Source of the DNA: a virus
Direction: 5' to 3' (one strand)
Length of the DNA: 52,634 nucleotides
IMG/VR virus record: IMGVR_UViG_3300029487_000014
Positions 12,297 to 52,634 of this stretch are shown here, in pieces. The notes under the pieces are model-generated. The model saw only the letters and a list, made by a program, of their open reading frames with translations, was not told the DNA's origin and did not search any database. Positions within the stretch are counted from its first letter, which is position 1, and each line of letters opens with the position of its first letter. The translations under genes were made by a program, and so were the position numbers.

Positions 12297-12683
12297 CTTT
12301 ATGAAGTATTTTGCACACAGCCATATAATTACTAAGGCTATGGCCGTTATCAGGTATTCACCAATATTAATTTTTATCTTTTGCCATTTAGTAAACTGAG
12401 CTTCTACAGGGTATGCAACTTGAATTGTATCAACTTTTTCTCGCCAGAGAGTATCATGCTTTTCTATGTATTTATACAAGTATTTATATTTACTGAGATA
12501 CACGGTATCGCCTTTGCGTTCTACATAGATTGAATCTCTATGATATATGCTATCAATTTTGGTCTGAGATAAGTAAGTAGTATCTCTTTTCGTTGTTTCC
12601 ACTGGCACATATTGAATTGACTTACAGCTATATAATATAGTGGCTAAAAATATAAGTGTAATTATTCTCGCTAATTCTCGCAT
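12291..12683 (-). CDS. Putative unimolecular spanin (N-terminal lipoprotein signal plus C-terminal transmembrane helix)
   Basis: MRELARIITLIFLATILYSC (lipobox-like LYSC) and the C-terminal YLITAIALVIIWLCAKYFIKR. Last gene of the lysis cassette. Confidence 0.55.
   Translation of the reverse strand: MRELARIITLIFLATILYSCKSIQYVPVETTKRDTTYLSQTKIDSIYHRDSIYVERKGDTVYLSKYKYLYKYIEKHDTLWREKVDTIQVAYPVEAQFTKWQKIKINIGEYLITAIALVIIWLCAKYFIKR
12664..12681 (-). promoter_or_regulatory. Two GCGAGAAT boxes in direct repeat with 10-bp spacing
   Basis: ATTCTCGC at 12664-12671 and 12674-12681, overlapping codons 2-7 of the spanin gene. Confidence 0.5.
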
Positions 12684-28288: not shown

Positions 28289-28557
28289 ATTAAAATTCGC
28301 GTTATAGGGGTTGATATGATAGGAATAAGTATAATACTCATCTCGTTAAAGAAAATAGCGAGAATGATAGCGAGAATAAGCGATGTCCAAAAGCTTAAGC
28401 AAAAATCACAATCGAATAATTGAGAAATAAGCTTAGGAGCTCTGGTAATTATCTCATCACGCGCGCCGAGTTTTCCAATTAGCAAAATAGCAAATGCTGC
28501 TGCTAAAGCTATATATATTAAAGCCGAAAGCATTGTTATAAAATATACCGTTGACAT
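28285..28557 (-). CDS. Integral membrane protein (DUF1360-like CDFCLSFW motif)
   Basis: 90 aa with three hydrophobic helices and a CxxC(L)SFW motif. Confidence 0.5.
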   Translation of the reverse strand: MSTVYFITMLSALIYIALAAAFAILLIGKLGARDEIITRAPKLISQLFDCDFCLSFWTSLILAIILAIFFNEMSIILIPIISTPITRILI

Positions 28558-36557: not shown

Positions 36558-36714
36558 CGAATATACTAAATTTCTTTATAAGCTGTACCGTTTTTAACAT
36601 TTTTTATATAGGTATTTTTTATCTCATATTCTCGTATTATGTTTATTCAAGGCTTATGATTTAATCATTCATATATAATTAGAAGCCTAGAAATTACGAG
36701 AATAATGCGAGAAT
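36558..36714. promoter_or_regulatory. Intergenic control region: TATATTCG box (36558-36565, minus sense), ACGAGAAT on the minus strand (36628-36635), and ACGAGAAT plus GCGAGAAT in tandem on the plus strand (36696-36703, 36707-36714)
   Basis: Read directly from the 253-bp gap between the terminase operon and the head operon. Confidence 0.5.
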
Positions 36715-40468: not shown

Positions 40469-41077
40469 TTATTTTCTATATGTATCTAAAGGATTTACAT
40501 AACACCATTCAAATCCATAGGCAGTATGCAATGAGCCTCTGCAACAAGCTGTGATATTGCTTGGTTTTCCACCAATTGCTTCTGCAGCTTCTTTTGCAGA
40601 ATTAAACATTGTTGATTTTCCTGTTTTTCTATCTATGCGATATACTGGTTTGCATAGGCTAAAAGAATGCATATCTGGATTTGCTATTAACAATTCTTCT
40701 ATTACTTTTTTCTCTTCTTGGCTCTTAGCACATGAAAGATTTATTTGATTATAGCCATAGGGTATAAATGCTTTATTGGCTGTTATTGTTTTATACTTTA
40801 GTGAGAAAAGTCGTTTTAAATTAAATATATTACTATCTATTAATCCAACTGTTATATATTTACTTTCTCTTATAGCTTGGCTTATTGAGCTATTGCCTGT
40901 TGGCGAATAGTCATCAAAAGCGTTAAGTATAAAAGATGTTACTGCACTTATGACTGTCCTGTTAAGAACGTGTCCTACATATAGCCTGTTATCTTTTTCG
41001 AATTCAATCGTAAATATTGCGTATTTGGCATTTACGTTGTCAGGCATATCCACCTTATAGTTATTTATCAGTACCAT
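40469..41077 (-). CDS. Free-standing GIY-YIG-like homing endonuclease with a C-terminal NUMOD/IENR-like DNA-binding module
   Basis: KYAIFTIEFEKDNRLYVGH is GIY-x9-YIG-like. The C-terminus reads VYRIDRKTGKSTMFNSAKEAAEAIGGKPSNITACCRGSLHTAYGFEWCY. Confidence 0.6.
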   Translation of the reverse strand: MVLINNYKVDMPDNVNAKYAIFTIEFEKDNRLYVGHVLNRTVISAVTSFILNAFDDYSPTGNSSISQAIRESKYITVGLIDSNIFNLKRLFSLKYKTITANKAFIPYGYNQINLSCAKSQEEKKVIEELLIANPDMHSFSLCKPVYRIDRKTGKSTMFNSAKEAAEAIGGKPSNITACCRGSLHTAYGFEWCYVNPLDTYRK

Positions 41078-41216: not shown

Positions 41217-41417
41217 TTGATTTTCAATTATATAAGTTACTACGGAAACAAAGAAATTGCGAGAATTTTTTTCTTCTATATACCCTTTTTTTAAAAAAGC
41301 CTATCTATATTAATATATACTAGCTAATATAAATAACAATTCTATATTTTTATTTTGTGCTCCATATAAATTTCTTTGTTTATCTTGTTTATTTATATCT
41401 AATTCATTGAAAATCAA
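41217..41417. repeat. Nested inverted repeats: outer TTGATTTTCAAT / ATTGAAAATCAA (41217-41228 / 41406-41417) and inner AAACAAAGAAAT / ATTTCTTTGTTT (41246-41257 / 41370-41381)
   Basis: Read directly. The geometry and sequence blocks are homologous to the 12079-12223 locus. Confidence 0.8.
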
Positions 41418-41611
41418 TCACTTATCGAGAAACAATCTGTTGTTTATATTGTTTATATTGTTTATACTGCGAGAATGTCATTTTGCCAATTCCCTATTAA
41501 GTCTAAGGGTCTAAATTGATATTTGCGAGAATATATGTGAGAATGAAAATTTATGAGCCTCTGGGCCTTGTTCATACTTATATTATGATTTGTTAGCCAG
41601 TTTGCGAGAAT
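41259..41611 (+). promoter_or_regulatory. Five same-orientation GAGAAT boxes: GCGAGAAT at 41259, 41469, 41525 and 41604, and GTGAGAAT at 41537
   Basis: Each is preceded by T(T)/K. Contexts: aaattGCGAGAATtttt, atactGCGAGAATgtca, atttGCGAGAATatat, agtttGCGAGAATgatt. Confidence 0.6.
41441..41467. repeat. Three tandem 9-mers: TGTTTATAT TGTTTATAT TGTTTATAC (iteron-like)
   Basis: Read directly. Followed immediately by a GCGAGAAT box. Confidence 0.85.
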
Positions 41612-41755
41612 GATTTGAAGCCAAAAAATTTTTCTGCCTATGGGCATGGCTCTATATACTATATATAAGGGGCACCCAGGCACTGCGGCAGGGGCCTAAT
41701 TTCCACACAGGCAAAATTTTCAAAATATAAAAATTTATTTGGTTAAAAAGCATTA

Positions 41756-41942
41756 AGCCTGACAGCCTAATTCGTTAATTATGGTTTAATTCGTTAAAGT
41801 TCTATAAGGCTATCAGCCTGTTAACGACTCTTAACTAAAATAATTTTCAGGTTCCAAACCATTTACAGGCTCATAGCCTCTCCTCCAACAAGGTTTAACG
41901 AAAATTTAACACTTCCTAACCAAATATATTTTCAGGTTCCAA
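41756..41942. promoter_or_regulatory. Operator-like repeat field: AGGCT-N3-AGCCT palindromes (41807-41819, 41867-41879; related AGCCTGACAGCCT at 41756-41768), TAATTCGTTAA twice (41768-41778, 41788-41798), and ATTTTCAGGTTCCAA twice (41843-41857, 41928-41942)
   Basis: All repeats were read directly in the 1.1-kb divergent intergenic region. Confidence 0.6.
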
Positions 41943-42079
41943 TTATTTTATTAGCTGACAGGTATAAAATTATTATTTTAATTTATTAACGAAACAACCA
42001 GGAAATTTAATACGATTTAACCCGTAAAATTTTTATATGTTATTTATTTTACAGGCAAAAAAATTTCCAAAAAAAATCA

Positions 42080-42260: not shown

Positions 42261-42434
42261 ATGACACAGTTAGAAAAATTCTTGTTCGAATTATCATTCG
42301 GAGAAATTAAAAAAATTCGTGATTATATGTTAAAAAGGTATCACGTATATTGTGGCTCAATGGAAAAGCTGGCGAGAGAAATAGACGAGAGAATACCGGA
42401 GCCGCTTGAAGAACTGTACGAAGTGCTCGCATAA
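42261..42434 (+). CDS. Hypothetical early protein (57 aa; below the ORF-track cutoff)
   Basis: Manual translation MTQLEKFLFELSFGEIKKIRDYMLKRYHVYCGSMEKLAREIDERIPEPLEELYEVLA. Confidence 0.5.
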   Translation: MTQLEKFLFELSFGEIKKIRDYMLKRYHVYCGSMEKLAREIDERIPEPLEELYEVLA

Positions 42435-42444
42435 CAGGAGAACA

Positions 42445-42499
42445 TCCCGGGCGGGAGAATGGCCGTAATGGCATCAGTGGCTCAACTCCACTGCCGGGA
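42445..42499 (+). promoter_or_regulatory. Structured intergenic element A (base stem TCCCGG/CCGGGA; 3'-adjacent hairpin CAGTGG-CTCAACT-CCACTG)
   Basis: Hand folding. Same architecture as elements B and C. Ends 31 nt before the ATG at 42531. Confidence 0.55.
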
Positions 42500-42530
42500 A
42501 CAAGAGAATTAACAATAAAAATTTACAGCA

Positions 42531-42887
42531 ATGAAAGTAAACAGAAATTACCGTTTCGTATTGACGAACATTCCAAACAGCATGTTGGAAACAGGAGAAG
42601 TAAGAATTGACAACGAGGAAGTAACCGGCGAGAGAATGTTTGCCAGTGAATGCCACTACTATGCCGAAAAAAATATCCTCGAGTGTATCAAGGACGCAGC
42701 AAAACGCGACGACTTGCGCGGCTACTACGAACACACTTACTGTATCTACAAAGAGGACAAACCGAAAAAGGAGACAGTAGAGCGTGAAGAGGACGGCAAG
42801 AAAATTACCGAGACAAGAGAAATACCTGGCAAGGCAATGCTGGTTGAGGTAATTACAGTAGACGAGAACGGCATAAACATTCGCTAA
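42531..42887 (+). CDS. Hypothetical early protein
   Basis: 118-aa ORF preceded by the conserved leader AAAAATTTACAGCA. Confidence 0.65.
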   Translation: MKVNRNYRFVLTNIPNSMLETGEVRIDNEEVTGERMFASECHYYAEKNILECIKDAAKRDDLRGYYEHTYCIYKEDKPKKETVEREEDGKKITETREIPGKAMLVEVITVDENGINIR

Positions 42888-42904
42888 ACGAATGGCCGTT
42901 CGCC

Positions 42905-42943
42905 CCCGGGTTGGACGTACAGGAGTTCGACTCTCCTGCCGGG
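42905..42943 (+). promoter_or_regulatory. Structured intergenic element B (base stem CCCGG/CCGGG; T-arm-like hairpin CAGGAG-TTCGACT-CTCCTG)
   Basis: Hand folding. The 7-nt loop TTCGACT matches the tRNA T-loop pattern. Ends 28 nt before the ATG at 42972. Confidence 0.6.
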
Positions 42944-42971
42944 CACTATAACAAATCTAAAAATTACAGTT

Positions 42972-43346
42972 ATGACAAAGAACTATTACAGGAGTGAGTA
43001 CTCTGACAAACAGTGGAAAGCCTTAATCGACAAGGCCACGGAACTGGGTTGCCAGATAACTTATAGCAAGTACGGCAACATAGTAACAATCGACAGCACA
43101 GACCGGAAGAGCTTAATAATAGCTCAAACCGGGAGAGGCGGACAGGACAGAGTCGTATTGGCCGAGAGAATACACGGCGTGATACAGGAGAGCACAGACC
43201 TCAGAACGTGGAAAGTGCAGCCCAAGAGATACCGCAAAGGCTATTGTCCGACTATTTGCAAGAGTCAGAAGTCGGCTGAGCATGAACAGGAGCGTCTCGA
43301 GAGAATGACAGGTTTTGAGTGGACAATAACAGTAATACCAGAATAA
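42972..43346 (+). CDS. Hypothetical early protein
   Basis: 124-aa ORF preceded by the leader CTAAAAATTACAGTT. Confidence 0.65.
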   Translation: MTKNYYRSEYSDKQWKALIDKATELGCQITYSKYGNIVTIDSTDRKSLIIAQTGRGGQDRVVLAERIHGVIQESTDLRTWKVQPKRYRKGYCPTICKSQKSAEHEQERLERMTGFEWTITVIPE

Positions 43347-43347
43347 T

Positions 43348-43578
43348 ATGAAGAAGACAGTTTATTTGTACGTTGAAAGAGACGACAGCGAATACGACTA
43401 TAAAGCCGGATTTGCAAGCTACACTGAGGCAAATGACTATCGGCAAGAACGCCAACGCGGTTGGATGGGTCACTGTGACTATGTGTATCTTTGGACCGGC
43501 TCCGAGAGAATTAACCTCACAAGAATGCCGAAAGACGAGAGAAACAAATTGCTGAAACAGTTTAATATACCGGAATAA
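43348..43578 (+). CDS. Hypothetical early protein
   Basis: 76-aa ORF, 1 nt after the previous stop. Confidence 0.6.
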   Translation: MKKTVYLYVERDDSEYDYKAGFASYTEANDYRQERQRGWMGHCDYVYLWTGSERINLTRMPKDERNKLLKQFNIPE

Positions 43579-43579
43579 T

Positions 43580-43786
43580 ATGAGCAGCAAGAGAACTTAT
43601 ATCGCTACATTCTGGCGTAGCAATCCGCAATTGAAGAATGGCGGTTACTTCACTACAAAGGAATTTCAATCTGTGTCGCTCCAAGGAGCAACAAAACAGG
43701 CTGAGAGATATGCAGCTAGTAATATGTATGGAGGCATGGCAGTAAAAAGTGTTGAACTAAAACAAGAGAACAGCAATGGAAAATAA
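43580..43786 (+). CDS. Hypothetical early protein
   Basis: 68-aa ORF, 1 nt after the previous stop. Confidence 0.6.
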   Translation: MSSKRTYIATFWRSNPQLKNGGYFTTKEFQSVSLQGATKQAERYAASNMYGGMAVKSVELKQENSNGK

Positions 43787-43883
43787 CAAATCGCAGTTCA
43801 AGAGAACAGGAGTTTTGCACAACGGAGCCGAGTGCATTGAGATACAAATTGATGAATATGCAGCAAGAATGAACGTAAAATAA
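43776..43883 (+). CDS. Possible 35-aa protein
   Basis: Manual translation MENNKSQFKRTGVLHNGAECIEIQIDEYAARMNVK. Its start overlaps the previous gene's stop. Confidence 0.35.
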   Translation: MENNKSQFKRTGVLHNGAECIEIQIDEYAARMNVK

Positions 43884-43899
43884 CCAACATTATTTAACG

Positions 43900-43955
43900 A
43901 AAAAAGTTCTTAAAGCAGTAACCAGATTAAAATAAAAGTAGTATATTTGCATATA
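43900..43955 (+). promoter_or_regulatory. Rightward promoter P3 (TATATTTG at 43942-43949; conserved upstream block AAAAAAGTTCTTAAAGCAG at 43900-43918)
   Basis: Exact TAnnTTTG match. The whole module is duplicated as P4. Confidence 0.65.
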
Positions 43956-44002
43956 CTTAAAAAGATATGGCGATAGCCAAAACAACTAAAATTTACAGCA
44001 AT

Positions 44003-44194
44003 ATGGAAACAACAGTTTTTTATGTAGCAGTTGCCTATAACGGCGGTATTTTCAATCCCACAGTTGTGGAGAAGTTTGATAACAAAACAGATGCAGACAG
44101 CTATGCGGCCCTTATGTGTCGCTCAAAGCAACGCCGGTACATTGTACTCGAGCAAGTAACAGAATGGGACGGCACTCCTCAAGAGAATGCATGA
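44003..44194 (+). CDS. Hypothetical early protein (start placed at METTVFYV)
   Basis: The conserved leader CTAAAATTTACAGCAAT abuts the ATG at 44003. The upstream ATG at 43967 would translate through that leader. Confidence 0.6.
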   Translation: METTVFYVAVAYNGGIFNPTVVEKFDNKTDADSYAALMCRSKQRRYIVLEQVTEWDGTPQENA

Positions 44195-44199
44195 CCTTA

Positions 44200-44274
44200 G
44201 CCGCTGCGGAGAGAAACGATATTCGTGGAACAGTATCAAGCGAAGCGGATTTTAGGAGCGACACCTACAGCGGC
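44200..44274 (+). promoter_or_regulatory. Structured intergenic element C (base stem GCCGCTG/CAGCGGC; 3'-adjacent hairpin TAGG-AGCGACA-CCTA)
   Basis: Hand folding. Same layout as A and B. A second hairpin (TTGCT..CGCAA..TTGCG..AGCAA) follows at 44289-44316. Confidence 0.5.
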
Positions 44275-44337
44275 ACTAAGTTTAACCCTTGCTTTCGCAA
44301 TATTGTTGCGGAGCAACTAATAAAAATTTACAGTAAT

Positions 44338-44502
44338 ATGGTAACAATGAAATTTTCAGCAACCAAGTCAGAAACATTGTTTTTGACACCGACAATTGCA
44401 GTTGAACAAGACAACTCAGAAACAGCAATCCGATTTGCTCTTTGGCACGGCGTGTTCAGTGTAGAGGTAAGTAAGAGCTACAAAACCGTAAAAGCTAAAT
44501 AA
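44338..44502 (+). CDS. Hypothetical early protein (54 aa; start at MVTMKF)
   Basis: The leader TAAAAATTTACAGTAAT abuts the ATG at 44338. The longer track ORF from 44116 reads through element C. Confidence 0.55.
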   Translation: MVTMKFSATKSETLFLTPTIAVEQDNSETAIRFALWHGVFSVEVSKSYKTVKAK

Positions 44503-44503
44503 C

Positions 44504-44770
44504 ATGGCAAGAAATGAAATGTTTGTAACGGTTTATAGGCTTGAAGTTGAAGCCACTCGAGAGAATTTGGACAGTATGGAGAACTTTATAAAAGCTATTT
44601 CGGATAACGCTATCGTGTCCAACGATGAGGGCCATGTAGCTATCATAGTAGTGTCTTCGGATGCCTTAGGGACAACGAAATTGGCTAATATGGCACTCAA
44701 ATTCTTTGGCAAGGAGGGATATAATATAAGTACTCTCGGACTCTTAGGGCCGTTTAAGAAACTCAATTGA
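44504..44770 (+). CDS. Hypothetical early protein
   Basis: 88-aa ORF, 1 nt after the previous stop. Confidence 0.6.
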   Translation: MARNEMFVTVYRLEVEATRENLDSMENFIKAISDNAIVSNDEGHVAIIVVSSDALGTTKLANMALKFFGKEGYNISTLGLLGPFKKLN

Positions 44771-44792
44771 TATTTTTTAACATAAAACTTGG

Positions 44793-44848
44793 AAAAAAGT
44801 TCCCAAAGCAGCTCAATAATTCAAAAAAACATAGTATATTTGCAATAT
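44793..44848 (+). promoter_or_regulatory. Rightward promoter P4 (TATATTTG at 44835-44842; upstream block AAAAAAGTTCCCAAAGCAG at 44793-44811)
   Basis: Paralogue of P3. Confidence 0.65.
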
Positions 44849-44896
44849 CAAAATTAAACAATAACATTTTAATAACAATTCAAAATTTACAGCATT

Positions 44897-46024
44897 ATGG
44901 CAACAAAGAAATTTTTGCAGATGACAACGAAGAAGCTGAACGCTCTTTTGGCAACAGCAAGTGACGAAGACAAAAAGGCTATCGAGGCCGTACTCGCAGC
45001 TCGTGAACAGGCTCAGGCCCCCGCTGCTCCTGCAGCTCCTGAGGCAACCGCAGAAGAGACTCCTGCAAGTGAAGAAGAAACTCAGCTCAGCCCTGAGGAA
45101 GAAGCAGCTATTAAGGCAGCTGAAGAGAATGGCGGGCTCAACCCGCTTTACAATGGCAGCAAGGCAACTCAGGAGAAAAAGCCAAAGATGACCGACGAGG
45201 AGCGTCACGCATTGGCCGAAGAGCTGAAGAAGAACGTTAACCACCGTTGTCAGGCAGTTCCTTTCAACACTGCAGAATGGGTTGACGGCTATATCGCCGG
45301 AGTGATTGAAGAGAAGCGCAGCAATAAGGTGCTCTATGCAATCAAGACAGACGACGGACGCCGCATCGTTAAGGTACACGACAGCAATCTTGTTCGCATT
45401 CTGGATGAAGTCGTTGAGCCGGAGAAGAAAGCCCGCGCTCGCAAAGCAAAAGACCCGGCAGACAAAGTTGAATGGACACCGGAAGCAATTGCCGAAGAGG
45501 TTAACGAAGTTATCGGCAACGTGGGCAAAACGGTAGAATTTGAGAAATACCGCACTACAGACGAAAACGGCGAAGAGCACATTGAAATGGTAGTTGGCCG
45601 TATTGTGGCAATCGTGCCTGACAAACGAGCTCAGCGTTTGCTCTACCGCATTTCAGTTCCGGCTCCTATCGAAGGCAATCCGCTTGCAACGAAGACTATG
45701 CACAAGGTTGTAAAAGCCGAGGGCATTAAGATTACCGAAGAGTTCGATGAAGAAGGTGCACAGCTCAATGCCAAGTATCTTGAACGCCGTGAGGCAGCAG
45801 CAACCCGTACTCCACTTACTCCTCAGGACCGCGTAATTCGCTGCGAGGAGAATGTGAAGAAGGCGGAGGAGAAGCTGCAGAAAGCTCAGGAAGAGCTGGA
45901 AGCTAAAAAGAAGCAGCTTGAGGATGCAAAGAAGGAGCTGGATGAATATCTTGCCGGTCAGGTAAATGGAGAAACTGCCGAAGCTCCTGCTGAAACTACA
46001 GCCGAAGAGGAGTCACTTGCATAA
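44897..46024 (+). CDS. Hypothetical acidic protein with a PAAP linker, two repeated small domains and a C-terminal coiled coil
   Basis: 375 aa. It has its own promoter (P4), the conserved leader and tandem terminators. GC content looks higher than in the neighbouring genes. Confidence 0.8.
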   Translation: MATKKFLQMTTKKLNALLATASDEDKKAIEAVLAAREQAQAPAAPAAPEATAEETPASEEETQLSPEEEAAIKAAEENGGLNPLYNGSKATQEKKPKMTDEERHALAEELKKNVNHRCQAVPFNTAEWVDGYIAGVIEEKRSNKVLYAIKTDDGRRIVKVHDSNLVRILDEVVEPEKKARARKAKDPADKVEWTPEAIAEEVNEVIGNVGKTVEFEKYRTTDENGEEHIEMVVGRIVAIVPDKRAQRLLYRISVPAPIEGNPLATKTMHKVVKAEGIKITEEFDEEGAQLNAKYLERREAAATRTPLTPQDRVIRCEENVKKAEEKLQKAQEELEAKKKQLEDAKKELDEYLAGQVNGETAEAPAETTAEEESLA

Positions 46025-46053
46025 CACAGCCGCCTGACACCGTTTCTCCCATG

Positions 46054-46105
46054 GAGTCGCCTCTTTCGAGGCGGCTCTTTTTTGCTGCATATCTAAGTAT
46101 GCAGC
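46054..46105 (+). terminator. Tandem terminators: GAGTCGCCTC-TTTC-GAGGCGGCTC plus TTTTTT (46054-46083), then the GCTGCATA-TCTAAG-TATGCAGC hairpin (46084-46105)
   Basis: Hand folding. The first hairpin is followed by a T-run. Confidence 0.8.
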
Positions 46106-46169
46106 TATTTTTGTATTATTGTGATTTATGTTAAAATATGTAAACTCATAGAAACATGCTTCTTTCGCG

Positions 46170-46394
46170 TTCTAGGACACTTTTAGGCTTTGGGTGTACT
46201 ATAATATGGGTCAACTCAATTCGACGCAATAGAGGTCAAAAGAAGTGTATCTATCAATGTATTTTTATAAAGTCTATAATATGAATTGAGGTATGGACTT
46301 TCCTGAGCTTTAAGCCACTAAGCAGTTATATAAATAGCTGTTAAATTTATGGCTAAAAAGTTGACTCATTTTCGTGCATTCTAGGACACTTTTA
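46170..46394 (+). repeat. Direct repeat TTCTAGGACACTTTTA (46170-46185 and 46379-46394) with partly conserved upstream flanks (ACTCAT...TTTCG)
   Basis: Read directly in the 0.5-kb non-coding gap. Confidence 0.8.
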
Positions 46395-46619
46395 TTTGAG
46401 AATAATAGTAAACTAAATCTATAAAAAGAAATGAAGAGAGAATGAACGAGAATAATGAAATTTCATATATTTTCGAGGCGTTTAGAGCTCTATATTTTTA
46501 TATTAAAGCTGCAATAAACCAGTGAAAAATTTTTATGTTAAAGTCTGTAAAACAGTGATTTATATCAAGATTATTTTGTACTTTAACTTATAAAAGAATA
46601 AAAGTGAAACTGTTAAAAA

Positions 46620-46841
46620 ATGTTACACACTAGAACACATAAAAGCCGCATAGTCATTATGATTAAACAGCTTATGCCTGAGAGTACAAGCTGTGTAGCT
46701 CGTGTGCACAGTGGACTATGCAGCAATTGTCCACATTGGACCCTGAGTGTGGTACAGAAGTTAACAGAGGAAATGGCCGAGAGAATATCTGCCGCGATTG
46801 GACAGGAGAATATCACAAGGCCCCAACGAGAGAAATGTTGA
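46620..46841 (+). CDS. Hypothetical protein with a CxxxxxxxxCxxC motif (alternative start at 46659)
   Basis: 73-aa ORF containing STSCVARVHSGLCSNCPHW. Confidence 0.5.
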   Translation: MLHTRTHKSRIVIMIKQLMPESTSCVARVHSGLCSNCPHWTLSVVQKLTEEMAERISAAIGQENITRPQREKC

Positions 46842-46862
46842 ACAAAAATAAATAATTGCGAT

Positions 46863-47060
46863 ATGGAAATAAATGAACAAGAGAATACCCAAGAGGTACA
46901 GCAAGAAAATTTGCTTGATGGCTCTCAGTCAATTCAGGCAATGCAAGAAGGAAATGAACTGCCAGTAGCTGTTCAATTAGTTCAGCCTCAAGCTGCTTTA
47001 GATGAAATAGCAGAGCTTGAGAAGAAATATTGTGAAACTATAGAACGGGAGAATAAATGA
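46863..47060 (+). CDS. Hypothetical acidic protein
   Basis: 65-aa ORF, rich in Q and E. Confidence 0.55.
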   Translation: MEINEQENTQEVQQENLLDGSQSIQAMQEGNELPVAVQLVQPQAALDEIAELEKKYCETIERENK

Positions 47061-47533
47061 GCAATTTTGTTTTAGATTACAGCAAAAAGCAGACTTTGCA
47101 AATATCAAATGATGCTTTTTGCTTTTTGTATTATGGCGAAGAGCCATTAGATGAAGACAATTTGGAAGAAGCTAATGAGGTATCTGAAATGTTTTCCAAT
47201 AATTTTTATATAGAAGATAATTGGAAAGCAGTTGATGACTCAGACCTTATAGAATGTACTTTTGTTCCGTATGTTGAAGACCAAGCTGATTATGATGAAT
47301 ATGAGGACCTTACTAAATATATTCAGCAGCAAATAAAATGGCTTGATGCAAATCATATTAGAGTATGGTGGTTTAATAACCAAACTGGGACGAGAGAATT
47401 ACGTGGTGATTTTAAGGTTTATACCAATAAATATGGCCTTAAGTGTTTTCATACAGGCAATCAAGATGAGGATTTTGTAACAGGAAAAATGAGCCTGTAT
47501 TTTTTGAAGAATTTCAAGAAGCGCATAGCTTAA
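47057..47533 (+). CDS. Hypothetical protein with a strongly acidic N-terminal half
   Basis: 158 aa. Residues 1-87 hold about 27 Asp/Glu and about 4 Lys/Arg. ATGA overlap with the previous gene. Confidence 0.65.
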   Translation: MSNFVLDYSKKQTLQISNDAFCFLYYGEEPLDEDNLEEANEVSEMFSNNFYIEDNWKAVDDSDLIECTFVPYVEDQADYDEYEDLTKYIQQQIKWLDANHIRVWWFNNQTGTRELRGDFKVYTNKYGLKCFHTGNQDEDFVTGKMSLYFLKNFKKRIA

Positions 47534-47553
47534 CAAGTGAACGAGAGAAATAT

Positions 47554-47587
47554 AAGGCAGACTACAGAAAAGTAGTCTGCCTTTTTT
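47554..47587. terminator. Bidirectional terminator between the convergent gene blocks
   Basis: AAGGCAGACTAC-AGAAAA-GTAGTCTGCCTT followed by a T-run. 12-bp perfect stem. Confidence 0.85.
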
Positions 47588-48308
47588 ACATTAAGCTTTC
47601 ATCTTCTTCTATAACAAGAGAATAACCAACTCCTCGTATAGTTTCTATAGCTACTCGGTTATCCATTTTAAGCATATTTCGCAGCATACATATATGAACA
47701 TCTAAGCTACGTTTATTAAAGTAGTTATCATCAGTCCATACTTGTTGCATAAGTATTTTCTTGGGTAATGTTTCGTTTTTATAGGCACATAATAAAGCAA
47801 GAACTTGGCTTTGTTTATTATTAAGCTGTGTTTTTACATTGCCTATAGTAAGAATTTTATCTACTGTATTAAACAGGTAATTGCCTATCTCATAAGATGG
47901 CTCTATACTTCTTACTCGCACACCACATCTTTTTAGAACGGCTTTTATTCTTCTTATAAGCTCCTCAATGTTATATGGTCTTATAACATAATCATCCGCA
48001 CCTTCATCAAATGCTTCAATTACATACTCATATCGGACCTTATCTGATACCATTATTACAGGTATTTTATCATCTGATTTGCGCAAAAATTTTAATGGCT
48101 TTAGCCTCATAGAGGCATCTGTTGTTTTATAATGACTTAATATGCATAAGTCATAATTCTTTTCTCTGATTTTGATTAGTATATCATCCTCAGTTGAGGT
48201 TATTACTTGAAAGCCATTATACACCAAATAATCTACCAGGATTTTACAGTCTTCATCTTGATAGATTAAAATTCTTGGCAATGCTAATTTAGTGTTATTA
48301 CTTTTCAT
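47586..48308 (-). CDS. OmpR/PhoB-family response-regulator-like protein lacking the phospho-acceptor Asp
   Basis: The receiver fold has ILIYQDED, then DLCILS (Ser58 where Asp is expected), VIMVS, and DDYVIRPY (Arg110 where Lys is expected). The winged-helix domain reads LDVHICMLRNMLK...IETIRGVGYSL. Confidence 0.8.
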   Translation of the reverse strand: MKSNNTKLALPRILIYQDEDCKILVDYLVYNGFQVITSTEDDILIKIREKNYDLCILSHYKTTDASMRLKPLKFLRKSDDKIPVIMVSDKVRYEYVIEAFDEGADDYVIRPYNIEELIRRIKAVLKRCGVRVRSIEPSYEIGNYLFNTVDKILTIGNVKTQLNNKQSQVLALLCAYKNETLPKKILMQQVWTDDNYFNKRSLDVHICMLRNMLKMDNRVAIETIRGVGYSLVIEEDESLM

Positions 48309-49355: not shown

Positions 49356-49719
49356 CTTCTTCCTTTTTAACCATTATTGTTTCTACTTTTTCTCCCTCTT
49401 CTGCTTGCTTTAATTCAACATAAGTCCTATGAAAAGCTTCGTCACCTATTCCTTTAATAAAAGTTCTAAGTGTAGAAGGATATTCGCTTGTATTTATAGT
49501 TTTATCGACTACTTTCGCGTAAAGAGCAGCAAGAGCTTTAGGTCCAAATACCTTTTTCTCCTGTAGTCTTTCGATGGGACCTCTTTTGAATTGAACACCA
49601 GGGTGCTCATTCATAATTTTTGTACGAGTTATATTTAACTCATTTATACAAGCCTCGATATTATTTTCAAACTGAGGCATTTGTATTACGTCAATTACTT
49701 TTAAGTTTGCTACTTTCAT
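49339..49719 (-). CDS. Hypothetical protein
   Basis: 126-aa ORF that overlaps the stop of the hydroxymethylase gene. Confidence 0.6.
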   Translation of the reverse strand: MKVANLKVIDVIQMPQFENNIEACINELNITRTKIMNEHPGVQFKRGPIERLQEKKVFGPKALAALYAKVVDKTINTSEYPSTLRTFIKGIGDEAFHRTYVELKQAEEGEKVETIMVKKEEDEKGA

Positions 49720-50402
49720 TTTTCAAGTTTTTTAAGTTGTTCTTTATAATACTTTTCTTTCATATCCCAGTGCCTTTCATATATATGAAGGTCATGAACA
49801 AAATGATAATATGTGCCTATAGGCAAACCAAGTTCATCAGCTACTAACTGTTGAAGCTTAGTCCAACAATACTGGTCATTACAAAAGCCATAAACCAAAT
49901 CATTGCTTCGCATGGTTACACACATATCAAGAGTTTCAATGCCTGGCTTAATATCAAAACCTACAGACAAAGTACAAGGAGTGTCATATTTATAATCATC
50001 CTTCTCTTTGCCGTCAAAGATTGTAAACCAAGCTTGACGAGTATCTTTGTTTTCTCTAAGTTGCTCAATACATTTTTCTAATTGATGATTACGACTCCAC
50101 TGCCATCCGTAATTAGAATTGACAAGATTATCTCCACCATGCATTTTATCCCACATAGGAGCATACTTTTTAATTTCAGCTACACTCCTATCTCCAGACA
50201 TATACCAGGCATATTCGCGTTCAGCGTATCGTTCGCTGAATTTACGCCATTTCGTTGTTATTATGCGCTGCTGAGGATTTAATAAATAAAAGCCAACATT
50301 GTAAACAGCCTTTGTTCCAACATTAGTTTCTACTCCTTGTCTTATAATAAAACTATATAGGTCCTCAAAAGCCCTAGTTGCGTTTTTATATACTATATTC
50401 AT
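49716..50402 (-). CDS. Thymidylate-synthase-fold pyrimidine hydroxymethylase, T4 gp42-like (probable dCMP hydroxymethylase)
   Basis: EREYAWYMS, NSNYGWQW, TPCTLS (Cys143) and MRSNDLVYGFCNDQYCW (Asp176 at the base-specificity position), plus HDLHIYERH. Close to my recollection of T4 gp42 (NSNYGW, NMRSNDVVFGFRNDYAWQ, SLHVYSRHF). Confidence 0.7.
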   Translation of the reverse strand: MNIVYKNATRAFEDLYSFIIRQGVETNVGTKAVYNVGFYLLNPQQRIITTKWRKFSERYAEREYAWYMSGDRSVAEIKKYAPMWDKMHGGDNLVNSNYGWQWSRNHQLEKCIEQLRENKDTRQAWFTIFDGKEKDDYKYDTPCTLSVGFDIKPGIETLDMCVTMRSNDLVYGFCNDQYCWTKLQQLVADELGLPIGTYYHFVHDLHIYERHWDMKEKYYKEQLKKLEK

Positions 50403-51033: not shown

Positions 51034-51118
51034 ATTCTCGCGCGCTCTAGAGCCCATGCATTTTTCTGAATATATTTCTTTTGTTTCATACTTTGCATGC
51101 GATATTACGCGCGAGAAT
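51034..51118. promoter_or_regulatory. 11-bp inverted repeat ATTCTCGCGCG / CGCGCGAGAAT (51034-51044 / 51108-51118) that carries the GAGAAT core
   Basis: Read directly in the gap between the dUTPase-like gene and the next gene. Confidence 0.6.
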
Positions 51119-51137: not shown

Positions 51138-51632
51138 TTAATAACTTCCAGTCGAGCCCAGAGCTCCATCGCCACGCTCGGATGAACGGCTGAAAAGCTC
51201 TGACTCAGAAACTTCTTCAAGGCCTTCATACGATACAGGCACAAGAATAAATTGTGCTATTTTCATACCTGGCTTAATGTGGACTTTGGCTTTGCCGACA
51301 TTAACAACATGTATATGAATTTCACCTTGGTAATCTTCATCTACAATCTTGGCTCCGAGGATAACGATGCTTTCAAATGCTTCTGCTTTCGGTGTTCTAC
51401 CAGCTCCAAGGCAAGCCCATTTAGAAGTTACAACTCCTGATTTATCGGCCGCCATAAGCATATATCCTTCTGGAATTTCCATCTTAATACCTGATGGTAT
51501 CAAAACATCAGTTCCTGGGTTTACGATAAAGCCTTTGTTATTGCCAAAGTTAGGAACGAAAAAATCAATTCCTGCTGCTTTACCAGTCCCACGAGCAGGG
51601 GACTTTACATTTCTTATTTTTGCAAATTTCAT
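51138..51632 (-). CDS. Trimeric dUTPase-family nucleotide pyrophosphatase (divergent motif II)
   Basis: Motif I AAGIDF, motif III GAKIVDEDYQGEI, motif IV GMKIAQFIL, motif V RGDGALGSTG. Motif II reads ADKSG instead of (P/G)RSG. Confidence 0.75.
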   Translation of the reverse strand: MKFAKIRNVKSPARGTGKAAGIDFFVPNFGNNKGFIVNPGTDVLIPSGIKMEIPEGYMLMAADKSGVVTSKWACLGAGRTPKAEAFESIVILGAKIVDEDYQGEIHIHVVNVGKAKVHIKPGMKIAQFILVPVSYEGLEEVSESELFSRSSERGDGALGSTGSY

Positions 51633-52098: not shown

Positions 52099-52634
52099 TT
52101 ACATTAAATCGTCATCGAATAAACTTGGCTGCTCAGTGGCTTTAGGAGCAACTTTTACATCTCCCGGCTTACGCTTTAATACCCAAAGAGTATTACGTGA
52201 AGCATCCGGGAACATAGGAGCCATGATATTGGCAATGAGGTTTGAGTCATAATACTCTTTAAGAGCATCAAACATTTTCTGTTGCCAATCGTTCATCAGT
52301 GGCTTATAGTCTTTAGCTGAAGCAAATGTACCGAACTTCTTTACTATGCTGAAATGCTTCAACAATATGCCTTCAAGCTCCCAATGGTCAAACTCTTGCA
52401 CATCAACTCCGCGACCATCACCTGAGTCATAAGTATGATTACCAGCTGCTCCTACAGATGGGTCATAGTTTGGAGTTGAAAGGTAATAAGTAGCGTTATT
52501 ATTGCCACAAGCCTTAAAGTTCTCCAAAAATGCATCTGCATTCTGTTTGCCAACATGCTCAAGCACTTCAAAAGCACAGACTTTGTCAGCATTAAACTTG
52601 CTGAAATCCATGTAGTTTTTAGCAAGGTCAGCAA
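52099..52634 (-). CDS. Class I SAM-dependent methyltransferase, C-terminal part (continuation of 1..385 across the junction)
   Basis: AFEVLEHV (post-motif II/III region). The ORF stays open upstream of the listed Met to the window edge and is in frame with 1..385. Confidence 0.75.
   Translation of the reverse strand, partial: ADLAKNYMDFSKFNADKVCAFEVLEHVGKQNADAFLENFKACGNNNATYYLSTPNYDPSVGAAGNHTYDSGDGRGVDVQEFDHWELEGILLKHFSIVKKFGTFASAKDYKPLMNDWQQKMFDALKEYYDSNLIANIMAPMFPDASRNTLWVLKRKPGDVKVAPKATEQPSLFDDDLM
52536..52634. repeat. Second copy of the 99-bp terminal overlap
   Basis: Identical to bases 1-99. Confidence 0.95.

What the first reader, a model, noticed from the sequence alone, without database searches (positions are those of the whole stretch)
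42373..47551. The 9-mer CGAGAGAAT and close relatives are strongly over-represented, all in sense orientation, across the rightward small-gene block
Exact CGAGAGAAT starts on the + strand at 42386, 42629, 43163, 43298, 43503, 44558, 46778 and 47391.

Variants with a one-base insertion or change (CGAGAGAAAT / CGAGAGAAAC) start at 42373, 43536, 46827 and 47542. Relatives of the form CRRGAGAAT are CAAGAGAAT at 42501, 44180 and 46878, and CGGGAGAAT at 42452 and 47046. GAAGAGAAT starts at 45122 and GAGAGAAT at 46445.

That is at least 19 sites in about 5.2 kb, roughly one or more per small gene, and none is on the opposite strand of this block. A specific 9-mer is expected about 0.2 times per strand in 52.6 kb (52,634 / 4^9, uniform composition).

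Six of the eight exact copies sit in the frame xxC-GAG-AGA-ATx (Glu-Arg-Ile/Met). Two use the other two frames, and several relatives are non-coding. The upstream wobble C and the GAG codon (not GAA) are fixed. This points to a nucleotide-level constraint rather than a shared peptide.

I noticed only one other exact copy in the genome (ATTCTCTCG at 17082-17090). It is also in the sense orientation of its gene.

Possible roles:
- an array of binding sites for a phage regulator (the Asp-less OmpR-like protein or the XRE-like HTH protein);
- an RNA-level signal in early transcripts, such as an endoribonuclease target analogous to T4 RegB sites, or an antitermination or pause signal;
- a Chi-like orientation-dependent DNA signal.
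Basis: seen in the sequence. Interest (0 to 1): 0.8.

Follow-up and report, generated by a model that had tools for sequence, protein, structure and literature searches.

The report
Oriented 9-mer tagging phage early genes
A family of human-gut Bacteroides phages carries about 20 same-direction copies of the short word CRRGAGAAT in two clusters of small early genes; natural selection keeps it there, so it is a real but so far undescribed control signal whose reader has not been identified.

Summary
CGAGAGAAT occurs 8 times on the + strand between 42386 and 47391, against 0.05-0.4 expected under Markov, codon-order and synonymous-codon shuffles.

The functional word is wider: C-R-R-G-A-G-A-A-T(-W). 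The block has 20 copies on the sense strand and none on the antisense strand. The other 46 kb holds it at chance level.

More than 100 related ~51-kb gut phage contigs carry 5-26 copies each, in about 140-180 distinct sequence contexts. Copies fall in all three reading frames and in non-coding spacers, so this is nucleotide-level selection, not a peptide.

The sites form two clusters, 42373-44566 and 46778-47623. They skip the conserved 375-aa gene, which has its own promoter and terminator.

A Chi/KOPS-like host signal is rejected: the word is neither enriched nor skewed in 0.45 Mb of Bacteroidales DNA. Mosaic junctions, anti-Shine-Dalgarno pairing and an RNA-RNA seed are not supported.

The phage's OmpR-type regulator (the phospho-acceptor Asp is a Ser), conserved tandem (T)GCGAGAAT repeats at promoters, and the block word all occur together. 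All are absent from the two distant relatives examined.

Best guess (~0.4): stoperator-like DNA sites that silence early operons. Main rival (~0.3): an RNA-level tag on early transcripts.

The parts
42373..42381 (+). site CGAGAGAAA, in CDS 42261-42434 (C at codon position 2)
42386..42394 (+). site CGAGAGAAT, in CDS 42261-42434 (frame xxC GAG AGA ATA); 13 nt after the previous site
42435..42443 (+). weak variant CAGGAGAAC, directly after the stop of the first gene, non-coding
   Evidence: a C at position 9 scores about 0.35 of T
42452..42460 (+). site CGGGAGAAT, non-coding, inside the 5' part of a tRNA-like minihelix
42501..42509 (+). site CAAGAGAAT, non-coding, just 3' of the minihelix and 22 nt before the ATG at 42531; the commonest mosaic breakpoint (59 loci) lies right after it
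42629..42637 (+). site CGAGAGAAT, in CDS 42531-42887; present in 68 related loci
42814..42822 (+). site CAAGAGAAA, in CDS 42531-42887
43163..43171 (+). site CGAGAGAAT, in CDS 42972-43346
43298..43306 (+). site CGAGAGAAT, in CDS 42972-43346
43503..43511 (+). site CGAGAGAAT, in CDS 43348-43578
43536..43544 (+). site CGAGAGAAA, in CDS 43348-43578
43588..43596 (+). weak variant CAAGAGAAC at codons 3-6 of CDS 43580-43786; the same place holds CAAGAGAAT in several unrelated genes of relatives
43763..43771 (+). weak variant CAAGAGAAC, in CDS 43580-43786
43799..43807 (+). weak variant CAAGAGAAC, in CDS 43776-43883
44180..44188 (+). site CAAGAGAAT, in CDS 44003-44194 (read as Gln-Glu-Asn)
44558..44566 (+). 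site CGAGAGAAT, in CDS 44504-44770 (frame CGA GAG AAT); present in 63 related loci; last site of the first cluster
44834..46085 (+). the 375-aa gene (CDS 44897-46024) with its own host-type promoter (44834) and strong terminator (about 46053-46085). It carries no canonical (T-ending) CRRGAGAAT; its only match is the A-ending CAGGAGAAA at 45170, plus two non-C look-alikes at 45122 and 45845. This is the motif-free gap between the two clusters.
   Evidence: the same gap is seen in relatives
46778..46786 (+). site CGAGAGAAT, first of a 4-site array within 110 nt at the 3' end of CDS 46620-46841
46827..46835 (+). site CGAGAGAAA, 24 nt after the previous one
46878..46886 (+). site CAAGAGAAT, at codons 6-8 of CDS 46863-47060
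47046..47054 (+). site CGGGAGAAT, at the end of CDS 46863-47060; it ends 2 nt before the ATG at 47057, so it doubles as a Shine-Dalgarno-like ribosome-binding site
47391..47399 (+). site CGAGAGAAT, in CDS 47057-47533; present in 74 related loci
47542..47550 (+). site CGAGAGAAA in the 3' UTR, a few nt before the bidirectional terminator hairpin (47554-47582). In the sister clade the equivalent site CGGGAGAAT forms the 5' arm of the terminator stem.
47615..47623 (+). site CAAGAGAAT (CGAGAGAAT in most relatives), beyond the terminator and antisense to the regulator gene, whose codons Tyr-Ser-Leu it overlaps. In 50 distinct sequences from several clades only motif-compatible codons are seen.
47586..48308 (-). 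OmpR/PhoB-family regulator (receiver domain plus winged helix; phospho-acceptor Asp replaced by Ser). It is convergent with the block and is the candidate trans-acting factor.
41259..41611 (+). four GCGAGAAT copies (41259, 41469, 41525, 41604) in the repeat-rich divergent intergenic region upstream of the block, in the same orientation as the block sites. This is a related word sharing the GAGAAT core.
36697..36714 (+). tandem direct repeat CGAGAAT-N4-CGAGAAT (11-bp period) in the 467-bp gap upstream of the head-gene operon; conserved across the family
28358..28377 (+). tandem direct repeat GCGAGAAT-N4-GCGAGAAT (12-bp period), 70-90 bp upstream of gene 27515-28288
12664..12680 (-). tandem direct repeat of GCGAGAAT on the - strand (10-bp period)

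Best explanation
The word CRRGAGAAT(W) is a cis-acting, orientation-dependent signal placed by selection throughout two operons of small early genes.

The reading I think most likely treats it as an array of asymmetric protein-binding sites on the DNA. It would work like the 'stoperators' of mycobacteriophage L5.
- The phage's own OmpR-family winged-helix regulator (47586-48308; it no longer has the phospho-acceptor Asp) is made from a leftward early operon.
- It binds tandem (T)GCGAGAAT repeats at leftward promoters to control them.
- It also binds the ~20 single CRRGAGAAT sites inside the rightward accessory operons.
- Bound in one orientation, it blocks or slows elongating host RNA polymerase and so shuts these genes off.
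- The 375-aa gene and the leftward early operons carry no such sites and stay on.

Shown:
- The word is real, selected at nucleotide level, oriented, and confined to these operons.
- It co-occurs across lineages with the regulator and with the promoter repeats.

Inferred:
- That the regulator binds the promoter repeats.
- That it (or any DNA-binding protein) binds the block sites.
- That binding stops transcription.
For: 1. **Shared core.** The block word shares GAGAAT with (T)GCGAGAAT.
   - GCGAGAAT occurs 11 times in the window against ~1.6 expected, and every copy is intergenic.
   - Three pairs are tandem direct repeats with 10-12-bp periods, the hallmark arrangement of OmpR/PhoB-family sites.
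   - The tandem pair upstream of the head genes is conserved in about 100 loci, sister clades included.
   - A heptamer copy in the spacer of one early promoter is conserved in about 145 loci, sister clades included.
2. **The regulator.** It is a bona fide OmpR-family protein whose acceptor Asp is replaced by Ser.
3. **Co-occurrence.**
   - Every relative with an orthologous regulator (46-100% identity) has the block word and GCGAGAAT.
   - The syntenic phage BF503P1 has no regulator, no enrichment of the block word (3 and 4 copies on the two strands of 52 kb, about chance) and almost no GCGAGAAT (1 copy).
   - L528 has only a 34%-identical OmpR-type protein and also lacks both words.
4. **Orientation.** Distinct contexts split 178 sense to 2 antisense. 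In L5, more than 20 asymmetric repressor sites are oriented with transcription and lose function when flipped (PMC9283540).
5. **A site past the terminator.** It lies inside the regulator gene on the opposite coding strand. It keeps only motif-compatible codons in 50 distinct sequences. That fits a DNA site or a backstop against convergent transcription better than a sense-mRNA signal.
6. **Site-free units.** The separately transcribed 375-aa gene, the untranscribed spacer 46.03-46.62 kb and the leftward early operons driven by the same promoter type carry no sites.
7. **Neighbour spacing.** Distances between neighbouring sites pile up at 11-15 and 22-25 bp.
Against: - **Conflicting base preference.** The base just 5' of GAGAAT is a purine in the block (C scores 0.06 relative to consensus). 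It is invariably C in the promoter repeats. The two words never mix between the two kinds of location. One DNA-binding surface should not demand opposite bases, so a second factor or a second binding mode is needed.
- **Lone sites.** OmpR-family proteins normally bind paired half-sites. Most block sites stand alone, with uninformative flanks.
- **Location.** About 60% of sites are inside coding sequence, which is unusual for operators.
- **RNA features.** Sites are 2-3 times more accessible in predicted RNA than purine- and GC-matched controls, and the 50 nt downstream are less structured. A subclass doubles as ribosome-binding sites. These features fit an RNA element.
- **Weak phylogenetic test.** The co-occurrence probably reflects a single evolutionary gain. 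Several other small genes share the same presence/absence pattern.
- **Spacing.** The spacing peaks come largely from one homologous locus.
- **Site conservation.** Individual sites are only modestly more conserved than their flanks.
Confidence: 0.4

Rival explanations
1. RNA-level tag. The word is read in the early transcripts as single-stranded RNA by a sequence-specific RNA-binding protein or endoribonuclease, of phage or host origin. That factor times the expression of the accessory early genes through cleavage, decay or translational repression, much as T4 RegB inactivates early mRNAs at GGAG.
For: - Sites occur only on the transcribed sense strand of the two operons, in coding sequence (all frames) and in UTRs or spacers.
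- There are none in the untranscribed spacer or promoter regions.
- The probability that all nine bases are unpaired is 2-3 times that of purine/GC-matched controls in seven genomes (p about 0.01-0.07 in six of them, 0.22 in the seventh). The downstream sequence is less structured (p = 0.002).
- A subclass (CAGGAGAAT/CGGGAGAAT) lies 0-6 nt before start codons, and another copy often follows at codons 3-6. Binding or cutting there would block translation.
- The early transcripts already carry other RNA devices, namely tRNA-like minihelices.
- The separately transcribed 375-aa mRNA is exempt.
- The purine requirement at position 3 of the word, which conflicts with the DNA repeats, is no problem here.
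Against: - No RNA-binding or RNase domain was found in any phage protein by Pfam, PHROGs or PDB sequence search.
- The Cys-rich 73-aa candidate is missing from L535, which still has 17 sites.
- Other early transcripts from the same promoter type lack the word.
- The conserved site at 47615 lies past a strong terminator and antisense to its gene.
- In the sister clade one site is buried in a terminator stem.
- The shared GAGAAT core with promoter DNA repeats would be coincidence.
- The tolerance pattern does not fit an RNA-RNA seed: A-to-G changes are rejected at positions 5, 7 and 8.
Confidence: 0.3
2. Translation-linked element, like the Start-Associated Sequences of Cluster K mycobacteriophages. 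The word is a ribosome- or factor-binding element that promotes or tunes translation of small genes. Intragenic copies would act as standby or re-initiation sites.
For: - At least 14 distinct start regions in relatives read AAAACAGGAGAAT(N0-3)ATG, and 47046 serves the gene at 47057.
- Cluster K SASs are 13-bp asymmetric repeats in one orientation, restricted to the non-structural genes, and contain AGGAG (PMC3203893).
Against: - Most sites are far from any start codon.
- The dominant CGAGAGAAT and CAAGAGAAT forms lack GGAG.
- Predicted pairing with the Bacteroidales 16S 3' tail (ACACCUCCUUUCU) ranges from -2.9 to -7.4 kcal/mol between equally favoured variants. For CGAGAGAAU, 16% of letter permutations pair at least as well.
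- No start-codon signal follows the word.
Confidence: 0.07
3. Polar DNA signal for a DNA-tracking machine. This could be a Chi-like site for host AddAB, a KOPS/SRS-like guide for a translocase, or a signal for priming, packaging or DNA entry at one genome end.
For: - One orientation over about 5 kb next to a repeat-rich intergenic region, where many assemblies break and where an origin or cos/pac site may lie.
- An HNH-TerS-TerL module begins just to the left.
Against: - In 0.45 Mb of Bacteroidales chromosomal DNA oriented by rrn operons, CGAGAGAAT occurs 2 and 1 times against 1.7 expected per strand. CGAGAGAA occurs 9 and 6 times against 6.8, with no skew.
- The word skips the 375-aa gene in the middle of the region and stops at operon borders, which follows transcription units rather than DNA distance.
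- BF503P1, which infects Bacteroides fragilis, has none.
- The orientation would suit only an enzyme entering from the far side.
Confidence: 0.05
4. No function of its own. The word would be a by-product of purine-rich codon usage, a recurrent Glu-Arg-Ile/Met peptide, fossil ribosome-binding sites, or microhomology left by cassette shuffling.
For: - The sense strand is strongly purine-rich.
- ER[IM] accounts for 6 of 8 exact copies.
- SD-type start cassettes carrying CAGGAGAAT circulate among relatives.
- Deletions and duplications between neighbouring copies are seen.
Against: - Synonymous and codon-order shuffles give 0.05-0.4 against 8 observed.
- Use of the three frames is equal across distinct contexts.
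- About 140-180 independent contexts have uninformative flanks.
- Every position except 2, 3 and 9 rejects substitutions.
- Mosaic breakpoints are not enriched at sites: 14% against 10%.
- BF503P1 has a block of similar architecture and no such word.
Confidence: 0.05

Closest known systems
[quoted passage not shown]
   Same: - More than 20 short asymmetric sites spread through transcription units of a phage.
- Orientation strictly correlated with the direction of transcription.
- The same protein also acts at promoters.
- Sites halt elongation only in one orientation (PMC9283540).
   Different: - L5 sites are 13-mers, mostly in short intergenic gaps, spread over the whole genome, and have the same consensus as the promoter operator.
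- The L5 binder is a two-domain HTH immunity repressor of a temperate phage.
- Here the word is 9-10 nt, about 60% intragenic, and restricted to two early operons.
- It differs from the promoter word at key positions.
- The candidate binder is an OmpR-family protein, in a phage in which no integrase was found among the ORFs searched against Pfam/PHROGs.
- Binding is untested.
T4 RegB endoribonuclease target sites (GGAG in early mRNAs); from my own knowledge, not re-read here
   Same: - A short sense-strand word that marks early transcripts, often within ribosome-binding sites.
- It allows timed functional inactivation of early messages.
   Different: - RegB recognises only 4 nt, mainly in intergenic Shine-Dalgarno regions.
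- Here about 16 bits are specified over 9-10 nt, and most sites are intragenic.
- No RegB-like protein was detected.
Start-Associated Sequences (SAS) of Cluster K mycobacteriophages
   Same: - Asymmetric repeat in one orientation, confined to non-structural genes.
- Contains an AGGAG-like core.
- Associated with genes of different families; function unknown (PMC3203893).
   Different: - SASs sit 3-7 bp upstream of start codons almost without exception.
- Only a minority subclass does so here.
OmpR/PhoB-family operators (pho-box-like direct repeats) and phage-encoded response-regulator homologues such as CtrA in alphaproteobacterial phages; the latter from my own knowledge
   Same: - The (T)GCGAGAAT repeats are tandem and direct with a 10-12-bp period, each with an A/T-rich 3' part, and lie at promoters.
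- The regulator has the family's winged-helix domain.
   Different: - The block word occurs as isolated single sites inside genes.
- It demands a purine where the repeats have C.
Chi / KOPS / SRS polar octamers
   Same: A short, over-represented word with an orientation bias.
   Different: - Those words are host-genome-wide and skewed with replication.
- This word is at chance level in Bacteroidales DNA and follows operon borders.

Membership tests
Stoperator-type array (L5-like) | Many copies of one asymmetric site dispersed within transcription units | tested here: met
   20-25 sites in the window block and 5-26 in each relative
Stoperator-type array (L5-like) | Site orientation correlated with the direction of transcription | tested here: met
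   178 distinct sense contexts against 2 antisense. Composition alone predicts 10-30:1, so the excess is modest.
Stoperator-type array (L5-like) | Same consensus at promoter operators and at intragenic or intergenic stop sites | tested here: not met
   The promoter word is (T)GCGAGAAT and the block word is CRRGAGAAT. They share GAGAAT but conflict at the adjacent base.
Stoperator-type array (L5-like) | A phage DNA-binding protein binds the sites and blocks elongation in an orientation-dependent way | not testable with these tools
   Needs EMSA, ChIP and reporter assays. Only co-occurrence with the OmpR-type regulator is shown.
RegB-like early-mRNA target sites | Word present on the sense strand of early transcripts, including ribosome-binding sites | tested here: met
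RegB-like early-mRNA target sites | Phage encodes a sequence-specific endoribonuclease | tested here: not met
   No RNase or RNA-binding domain found by Pfam, PHROGs or PDB sequence search. Fold-level search was not done.
RegB-like early-mRNA target sites | Cleavage at the word during infection | not testable with these tools
   Needs RNA end mapping.
Chi / KOPS-like host polar motif | Strong over-representation in the host chromosome | tested here: not met
   CGAGAGAAT 3 copies and CGAGAGAA 15 copies in 0.45 Mb (both strands) of Bacteroidales DNA, close to expectation. The true host species is unknown, so this is a sample of the order.
Chi / KOPS-like host polar motif | Skew towards the leading strand | tested here: not met
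   2 against 1 and 9 against 6, relative to rrn operon direction
OmpR/PhoB-family operator | Direct repeats of a 6-8-bp half-site with a period of about 10-11 bp near promoters | tested here: not met
   Met by the (T)GCGAGAAT repeats but not by the block word. Its copies are mostly solitary, with no second half-site in the flanks.
Start-Associated Sequences (Cluster K) | Located within a few bp upstream of start codons | tested here: not met
   Only a subclass does so: at least 14 distinct start regions in relatives and one in the window. Most sites are far from starts.

The most novel reading that the evidence does not exclude
A widespread family of human-gut Bacteroides phages uses a roughly 16-bit, 9-10-nt oriented tag to put its fast-evolving accessory early genes, and only those, under one common control. 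Any newly acquired gene cassette would have to acquire the tag.

Two forms would be new:
- An OmpR-family response-regulator homologue acting inside genes as an orientation-dependent elongation block. That is a mode not known for this protein family.
- A new sequence-specific RNA-targeting factor in Bacteroidota, a phylum that lacks Hfq and CsrA.
Probability: 0.35. Interest if true: 0.75.

Novelty: new variant of a known kind. Interest (0 to 1): 0.62.

Why it matters
Gene regulation in Bacteroides phages is almost uncharted, and these ~51-kb phages are common in human gut metagenomes. There are more than 100 related contigs, and one regulator protein cluster alone holds 2,863 sequences.

- The word gives a simple, testable handle on how such a phage switches off its host-takeover genes.
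- If the OmpR-type protein binds it, that would extend stoperator-style silencing to a new protein family and a new phylum.
- If it is read in RNA, it points to an unknown sequence-specific RNA regulator.
- In either case the word is a practical marker for annotating early accessory operons in this phage family.
- It is also a candidate portable regulatory part for Bacteroides synthetic biology.

Tried and rejected
- **Peptide explanation (Glu-Arg-Ile/Met).** Rejected by synonymous shuffles and by equal frame use.
- **Orientation as proof of strand-specific function.** Downgraded, because composition alone gives at least 10:1.
- **Host Chi/KOPS-like word.** Rejected on Bacteroidales DNA fetched through a 16S pattern.
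- **Recombination junction for cassette shuffling.** 14% of breakpoints lie near sites against 10% expected. Breakpoints sit at gene borders instead.
- **Pairing with the 16S 3' tail.** Inconsistent between variants.
- **RNA-RNA seed with G·U tolerance.** A and G are interchangeable only at positions 2-3, and A-to-G changes are rejected at positions 5, 7 and 8. No complementary word was found in a non-coding region.
- **Adjacent hairpins or a longer hidden motif.** The flanks carry no information and there is no nearby structure.
- **'Every gene must carry one'.** The zero class fits Poisson: 12 observed against 13.5 expected, on crude ORF families.
- **Avoidance outside the block.** None: 3 observed against 2.8 expected.
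It is absent from L535, which keeps 17 sites.
It has a homologue in motif-less BF503P1.
- **Rfam and ARAGORN.** No known RNA family or tRNA was found. There was only a weak T-arm hit and a terminator that resembles a CRISPR repeat.
- **Literature.** Nothing on the word or on this phage family's regulation.
- **Scan of viral contigs for paired copies.** It found mostly chance hits and unrelated tandem repeats. A few unrelated contigs had 6-8 sense copies per 10-14 kb, explained at least partly by how they were selected, and these were not pursued.
- **Intermediate lineages in IMG/VR.** The search found no BF503P1-like contigs.
- **Helical phasing of sites.** The apparent ~12-nt period comes mainly from one homologous locus.

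Full report
**1. What the window is**

The window is a complete circular assembly of a ~52.5-kb tailed phage; bases 1-99 repeat at 52536-52634.

- It has Bacteroides-type promoters. Its only cultured relatives are Bacteroides fragilis phages BF503P1 and kin, at ~75% DNA identity in parts.
- Almost all genes run leftward:
  - replication: SNF2 helicase, VapE-like primase-helicase, PolA, Enc34-type SSB, DUF2800 nuclease;
  - lysis;
  - tail and head genes;
  - an intein-containing large terminase;
  - an HNH endonuclease;
  - a nucleotide-metabolism operon.
- The only rightward region is 42.2-47.6 kb. It holds 12 small ORFan genes and one conserved 375-aa gene.
- Seven near-identical host-type promoters (GTATATTT[G/A]CA) exist. 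Four are in the block (42110, 42224, 43941, 44834) and three drive leftward operons (41107, 11983, 1277).

**2. The observation**

Expected counts for the eight + strand CGAGAGAAT copies:

| Background | Expected |
|---|---|
| Dinucleotide shuffles of the window | 0.35 (both strands, 9 observed) |
| Markov-4 model of the block | 0.44 |
| Codon-order shuffles | 0.05 |
| Synonymous shuffles keeping every protein | 0.38, with 0 of 2000 reaching 8 |

- It is the top-ranked 8- and 9-mer of the block.
- It is unique among the 2,520 permutations of its own letters: 8 copies against at most 2 for any other.

**3. The real motif**

Relatives show that the functional word is broader.

- 80 IMG/VR contigs fetched through the 375-aa protein all carry 1-13 CGAGAGAA copies on the block's sense strand and essentially none on the other strand. 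Their gene content is mosaic.
- A sister clade (regulator 68-74% identical) has 12-25 sites per block, dominated by CAAGAGAAT and CAGGAGAAT.
- Homologous sites interconvert A and G at positions 2 and 3.
- A substitution scan over 139 distinct CRRGAGAAT contexts gave this tolerance pattern:

| Position | Tolerance |
|---|---|
| 1 (C) | strict |
| 2, 3 | A and G equivalent; C and T excluded |
| 4-8 (G A G A A) | strict |
| 9 | T preferred; C scores 0.35, A 0.20, G 0.02 |
| 10 | A or T |
| flanks | uninformative |

- That is about 16 bits. With this definition the window block has 20 sense and 0 antisense sites, plus 5 C- or A-ending variants.
- The remaining 46 kb has 3 sites on the coding strand against 2.8 expected.

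**4. It is a nucleotide-level signal under selection**

- Across the pooled relatives there are 167-178 distinct contexts.
- Coding sites split 36/34/32 over the three frames, and 39% of sites are non-coding.
- The variant used depends on frame. CGAGAGAAT favours xxC-GAG-AGA-ATx, which avoids rare CGA and NCG codons. CARGAGAAT is read as Gln-Glu-Asn. So the two purine positions absorb the coding constraints.
- In the 73-aa gene (46620-46841) the conserved Cys-rich N-terminal part is followed by a tail whose peptide differs between clades. The tail always holds 3-5 copies.
- Individual sites are only modestly more conserved than their flanks: 0.35 against 0.45 non-reference states per column, and 0.44 against 0.65 at wobble positions. 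Selection seems to act more on having sites than on each particular site.

**5. Distribution**

- Sites form two clusters, 42373-44566 and 46778-47623.
- The 375-aa gene lies between them. It has its own strong promoter and terminator and is GC-richer. It has no T-ending CRRGAGAAT site, in this window and in the relatives examined; its only match in the window is the A-ending CAGGAGAAA at 45170.
- The 600-bp spacer after its terminator has none.
- The leftward operons driven by the same promoter type have none either.
- One site lies in the 3' UTR next to the bidirectional terminator.
- One site (47615) lies beyond the terminator, inside the 3' end of the convergent regulator gene and antisense to it. 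In 50 distinct sequences from several clades, the Tyr, Ser and Leu codons it overlaps use only motif-compatible codons, while neighbouring codons vary. The statistical weight of this is small.

**6. What it is not**

- **Not a host Chi/KOPS-type word.** In 0.45 Mb of Bacteroidales DNA flanking rrn operons, CGAGAGAAT occurs 2 and 1 times (1.7 expected per strand) and CGAGAGAA 9 and 6 times (6.8 expected), with no skew.
- **Not a marker of mosaic junctions**.
- **Not consistently complementary to the 16S 3' tail**.
- **Not an RNA-RNA seed.** A-to-G changes are rejected at positions 5, 7 and 8.
- **Not part of a longer repeat or a hairpin-linked element**.
- **No match to a known RNA family**.
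- **No literature** mentions it.

**7. The link to the regulator**

- A second word, (T)GCGAGAAT, shares the GAGAAT core. It occurs 11 times against ~1.6 expected, always in intergenic DNA:
  - as tandem direct repeats with 10-12-bp periods at 12664/12674 (-), 28359/28371 and 36697/36708;
  - as four copies upstream of the block (41259-41611);
  - as an inverted pair at 51034/51112.
- Single heptamers sit in the spacers of two leftward early promoters.
- The tandem pair and one promoter heptamer are conserved across all clades.
- This is the classic layout of OmpR/PhoB-family sites.
- The gene that abuts the block (47586-48308, leftward) encodes such a protein, with the phospho-acceptor Asp replaced by Ser. 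More distant orthologues still have Asp.
- Co-occurrence across lineages:

| Lineage | Regulator | Block word | GCGAGAAT |
|---|---|---|---|
| Relatives with an orthologue | 46-100% identical | present | present |
| BF503P1 (syntenic, 60-80% identical core proteins) | absent | not enriched (3 and 4 copies per strand in 52 kb) | 1 copy |
| L528 | only a 34%-identical OmpR-type protein | absent | absent |

- IMG/VR holds no further intermediates. The correlation may therefore rest on a single gain.

**8. Mechanism**

*DNA-level reading (my best guess, ~0.4).* It has a direct precedent. The L5 repressor binds more than 20 asymmetric 13-mers that are oriented with transcription, and they stop elongation only in that orientation (PMC9283540). 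By analogy, the OmpR-type protein would silence the accessory early operons from within. It would spare the 375-aa gene and the leftward early operons. The site past the terminator would act as a backstop protecting the regulator gene from convergent transcription.

The main objections are:
- The block word requires a purine where the promoter repeats have an invariant C, and the two words never mix.
- Most sites are solitary, although the protein family usually needs paired half-sites.
- Most sites are intragenic.

*RNA-level reading (~0.3).* It explains several things naturally:
- the sense-only, transcript-bounded distribution;
- the mildly raised single-strandedness;
- the overlap of a subclass with ribosome-binding sites.

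It lacks a candidate reader. It must also treat the shared GAGAAT core as coincidence.

*Minor readings.* A translation-linked role like Cluster K SASs (PMC3203893), a polar DNA signal, and a by-product are each given under 0.1.

**9. Verdict**

It is a family-wide, oriented CRRGAGAAT tag on two early operons. It is undescribed. The closest known kinds are stoperators, RegB sites and SASs, and it fully fits none of them. The reader of the signal is not established. I score interest at 0.62.

Noticed in passing
12664-12680 (-), 28358-28377, 36697-36714, 41259-41611, 51034-51040 (-) and 51111-51118: (T)GCGAGAAT repeats lie only in intergenic DNA. Three pairs are tandem direct repeats with 10-12-bp periods. 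These are probable operators of the phage's OmpR-type regulator at leftward (late?) promoters. They are conserved across the family.
   Followed up: partly
47586-48308 (-): OmpR/PhoB-family regulator with the phospho-acceptor Asp replaced by Ser (LCILSHYK). More distant orthologues (L525, L535) keep Asp, so the loss is recent. One 90%-identity cluster of this protein holds 2,863 sequences, so the phage family is common in gut metagenomes.
   Followed up: partly
42446-42499 and 42905-42945 (+): Two intergenic elements between early genes look like tRNA top halves: a 5-bp acceptor-like stem CCCGG/CCGGG plus a T-arm. The second has a canonical TTCGACT loop and gave a weak Rfam hit to the tmRNA T-arm. 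ARAGORN calls no tRNA. They may be RNase P/Z processing sites or 3'-end protectors of early mRNAs.
   Followed up: partly
+ strand 42110, 42224, 43941, 44834; - strand 41107, 11983, 1277: Seven near-identical strong host-type promoters (GTATATTT[G/A]CA with an upstream A/T tract). The two at 11983 and 1277 carry a CGAGAAT/ATTCTCG heptamer in the spacer. The one at 1277 is conserved in about 145 loci.
   Followed up: partly
43989-44005, 44324-44340, 44883-44899; related forms just before the starts at 42531 and 42972: Several early genes share the start region AAAATTTACAG(C/T)AATATG. Relatives swap it for a Shine-Dalgarno-type cassette AAAACAGGAGAAT(N0-3)ATG, which is notable because Bacteroidota rarely use SD sequences. 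Mosaic breakpoints cluster at these start regions.
   Followed up: partly
44897-46024 (+): A conserved 375-aa acidic, coiled-coil-rich protein with no family or PDB match. It is GC-richer than its surroundings, has its own promoter and strong terminator, and is the only block gene without the word. BF503P1 has a 47%-identical homologue.
   Followed up: partly
46620-46841 (+): A 73-aa protein with a conserved Cys/His cluster (C-x8-C-x2-C-x-H) and a clade-variable tail that carries the densest array of the word. The gene is absent from BF503P1 and from L535.
   Followed up: partly
46170-46185 and 46379-46394 (+): Two exact copies of TTCTAGGACACTTTTA, 209 bp apart, in the 600-bp non-coding spacer before the second gene cluster. 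They may be operators of another regulator. A weaker promoter-like box (TTATTTTGTAC) about 45 nt before the ATG at 46620 is conserved in three clades.
   Followed up: no
41400-42060: A repeat-rich divergent intergenic region with short inverted repeats (AGGCTATCAGCCT at 41807, AGGCTCATAGCCT at 41867), TTGTTTATA tandem repeats near 41440 and TAATTCGTTAA repeats. At least 10 related contigs start within the homologous stretch, and others start in lineage-specific tandem repeats that probably belong to the same region. It may be an origin or a cos/pac region.
   Followed up: partly
36929-39652 (-): The large terminase is interrupted by an intein with a LAGLIDADG homing-endonuclease domain. An I-HmuI-like HNH endonuclease gene (40469-41077) sits just upstream of the terminase genes.
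   Followed up: no
42434, 42591, 42919, 42988, 43184, 43286, 43806, 46802 (+): ACAGGAG is also over-represented on the sense strand of the block (8 copies against 0.9 expected). It overlaps partly with the CAGGAGAAT variant and with the T-arm-like hairpin.
   Followed up: no
49716-50402, 51138-51632, 52099-52611, 1352-1726 (-): Thymidylate-synthase-like (dCMP/dUMP hydroxymethylase-type), dUTPase/dCTP-deaminase-like, SAM-methyltransferase-like and nucleotide-kinase genes suggest that the phage DNA carries a modified pyrimidine.
   Followed up: no
L284, L259, L253, L308 (unrelated IMG/VR contigs): A few unrelated viral contigs (GC 0.43-0.47) carry 6-8 sense-strand CGAGAGAA copies per 10-14 kb, against ~0.5 expected. 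At least part of this comes from how they were selected (two copies within 33 nt).
   Followed up: partly
L528: 7623, 8495, 9472, 9931, 11337: The most distant relative lacks the word. Instead it repeats a 15-mer, TTTCAACTGTCAAAA, between its early genes, probably as a start-region or promoter cassette.
   Followed up: partly
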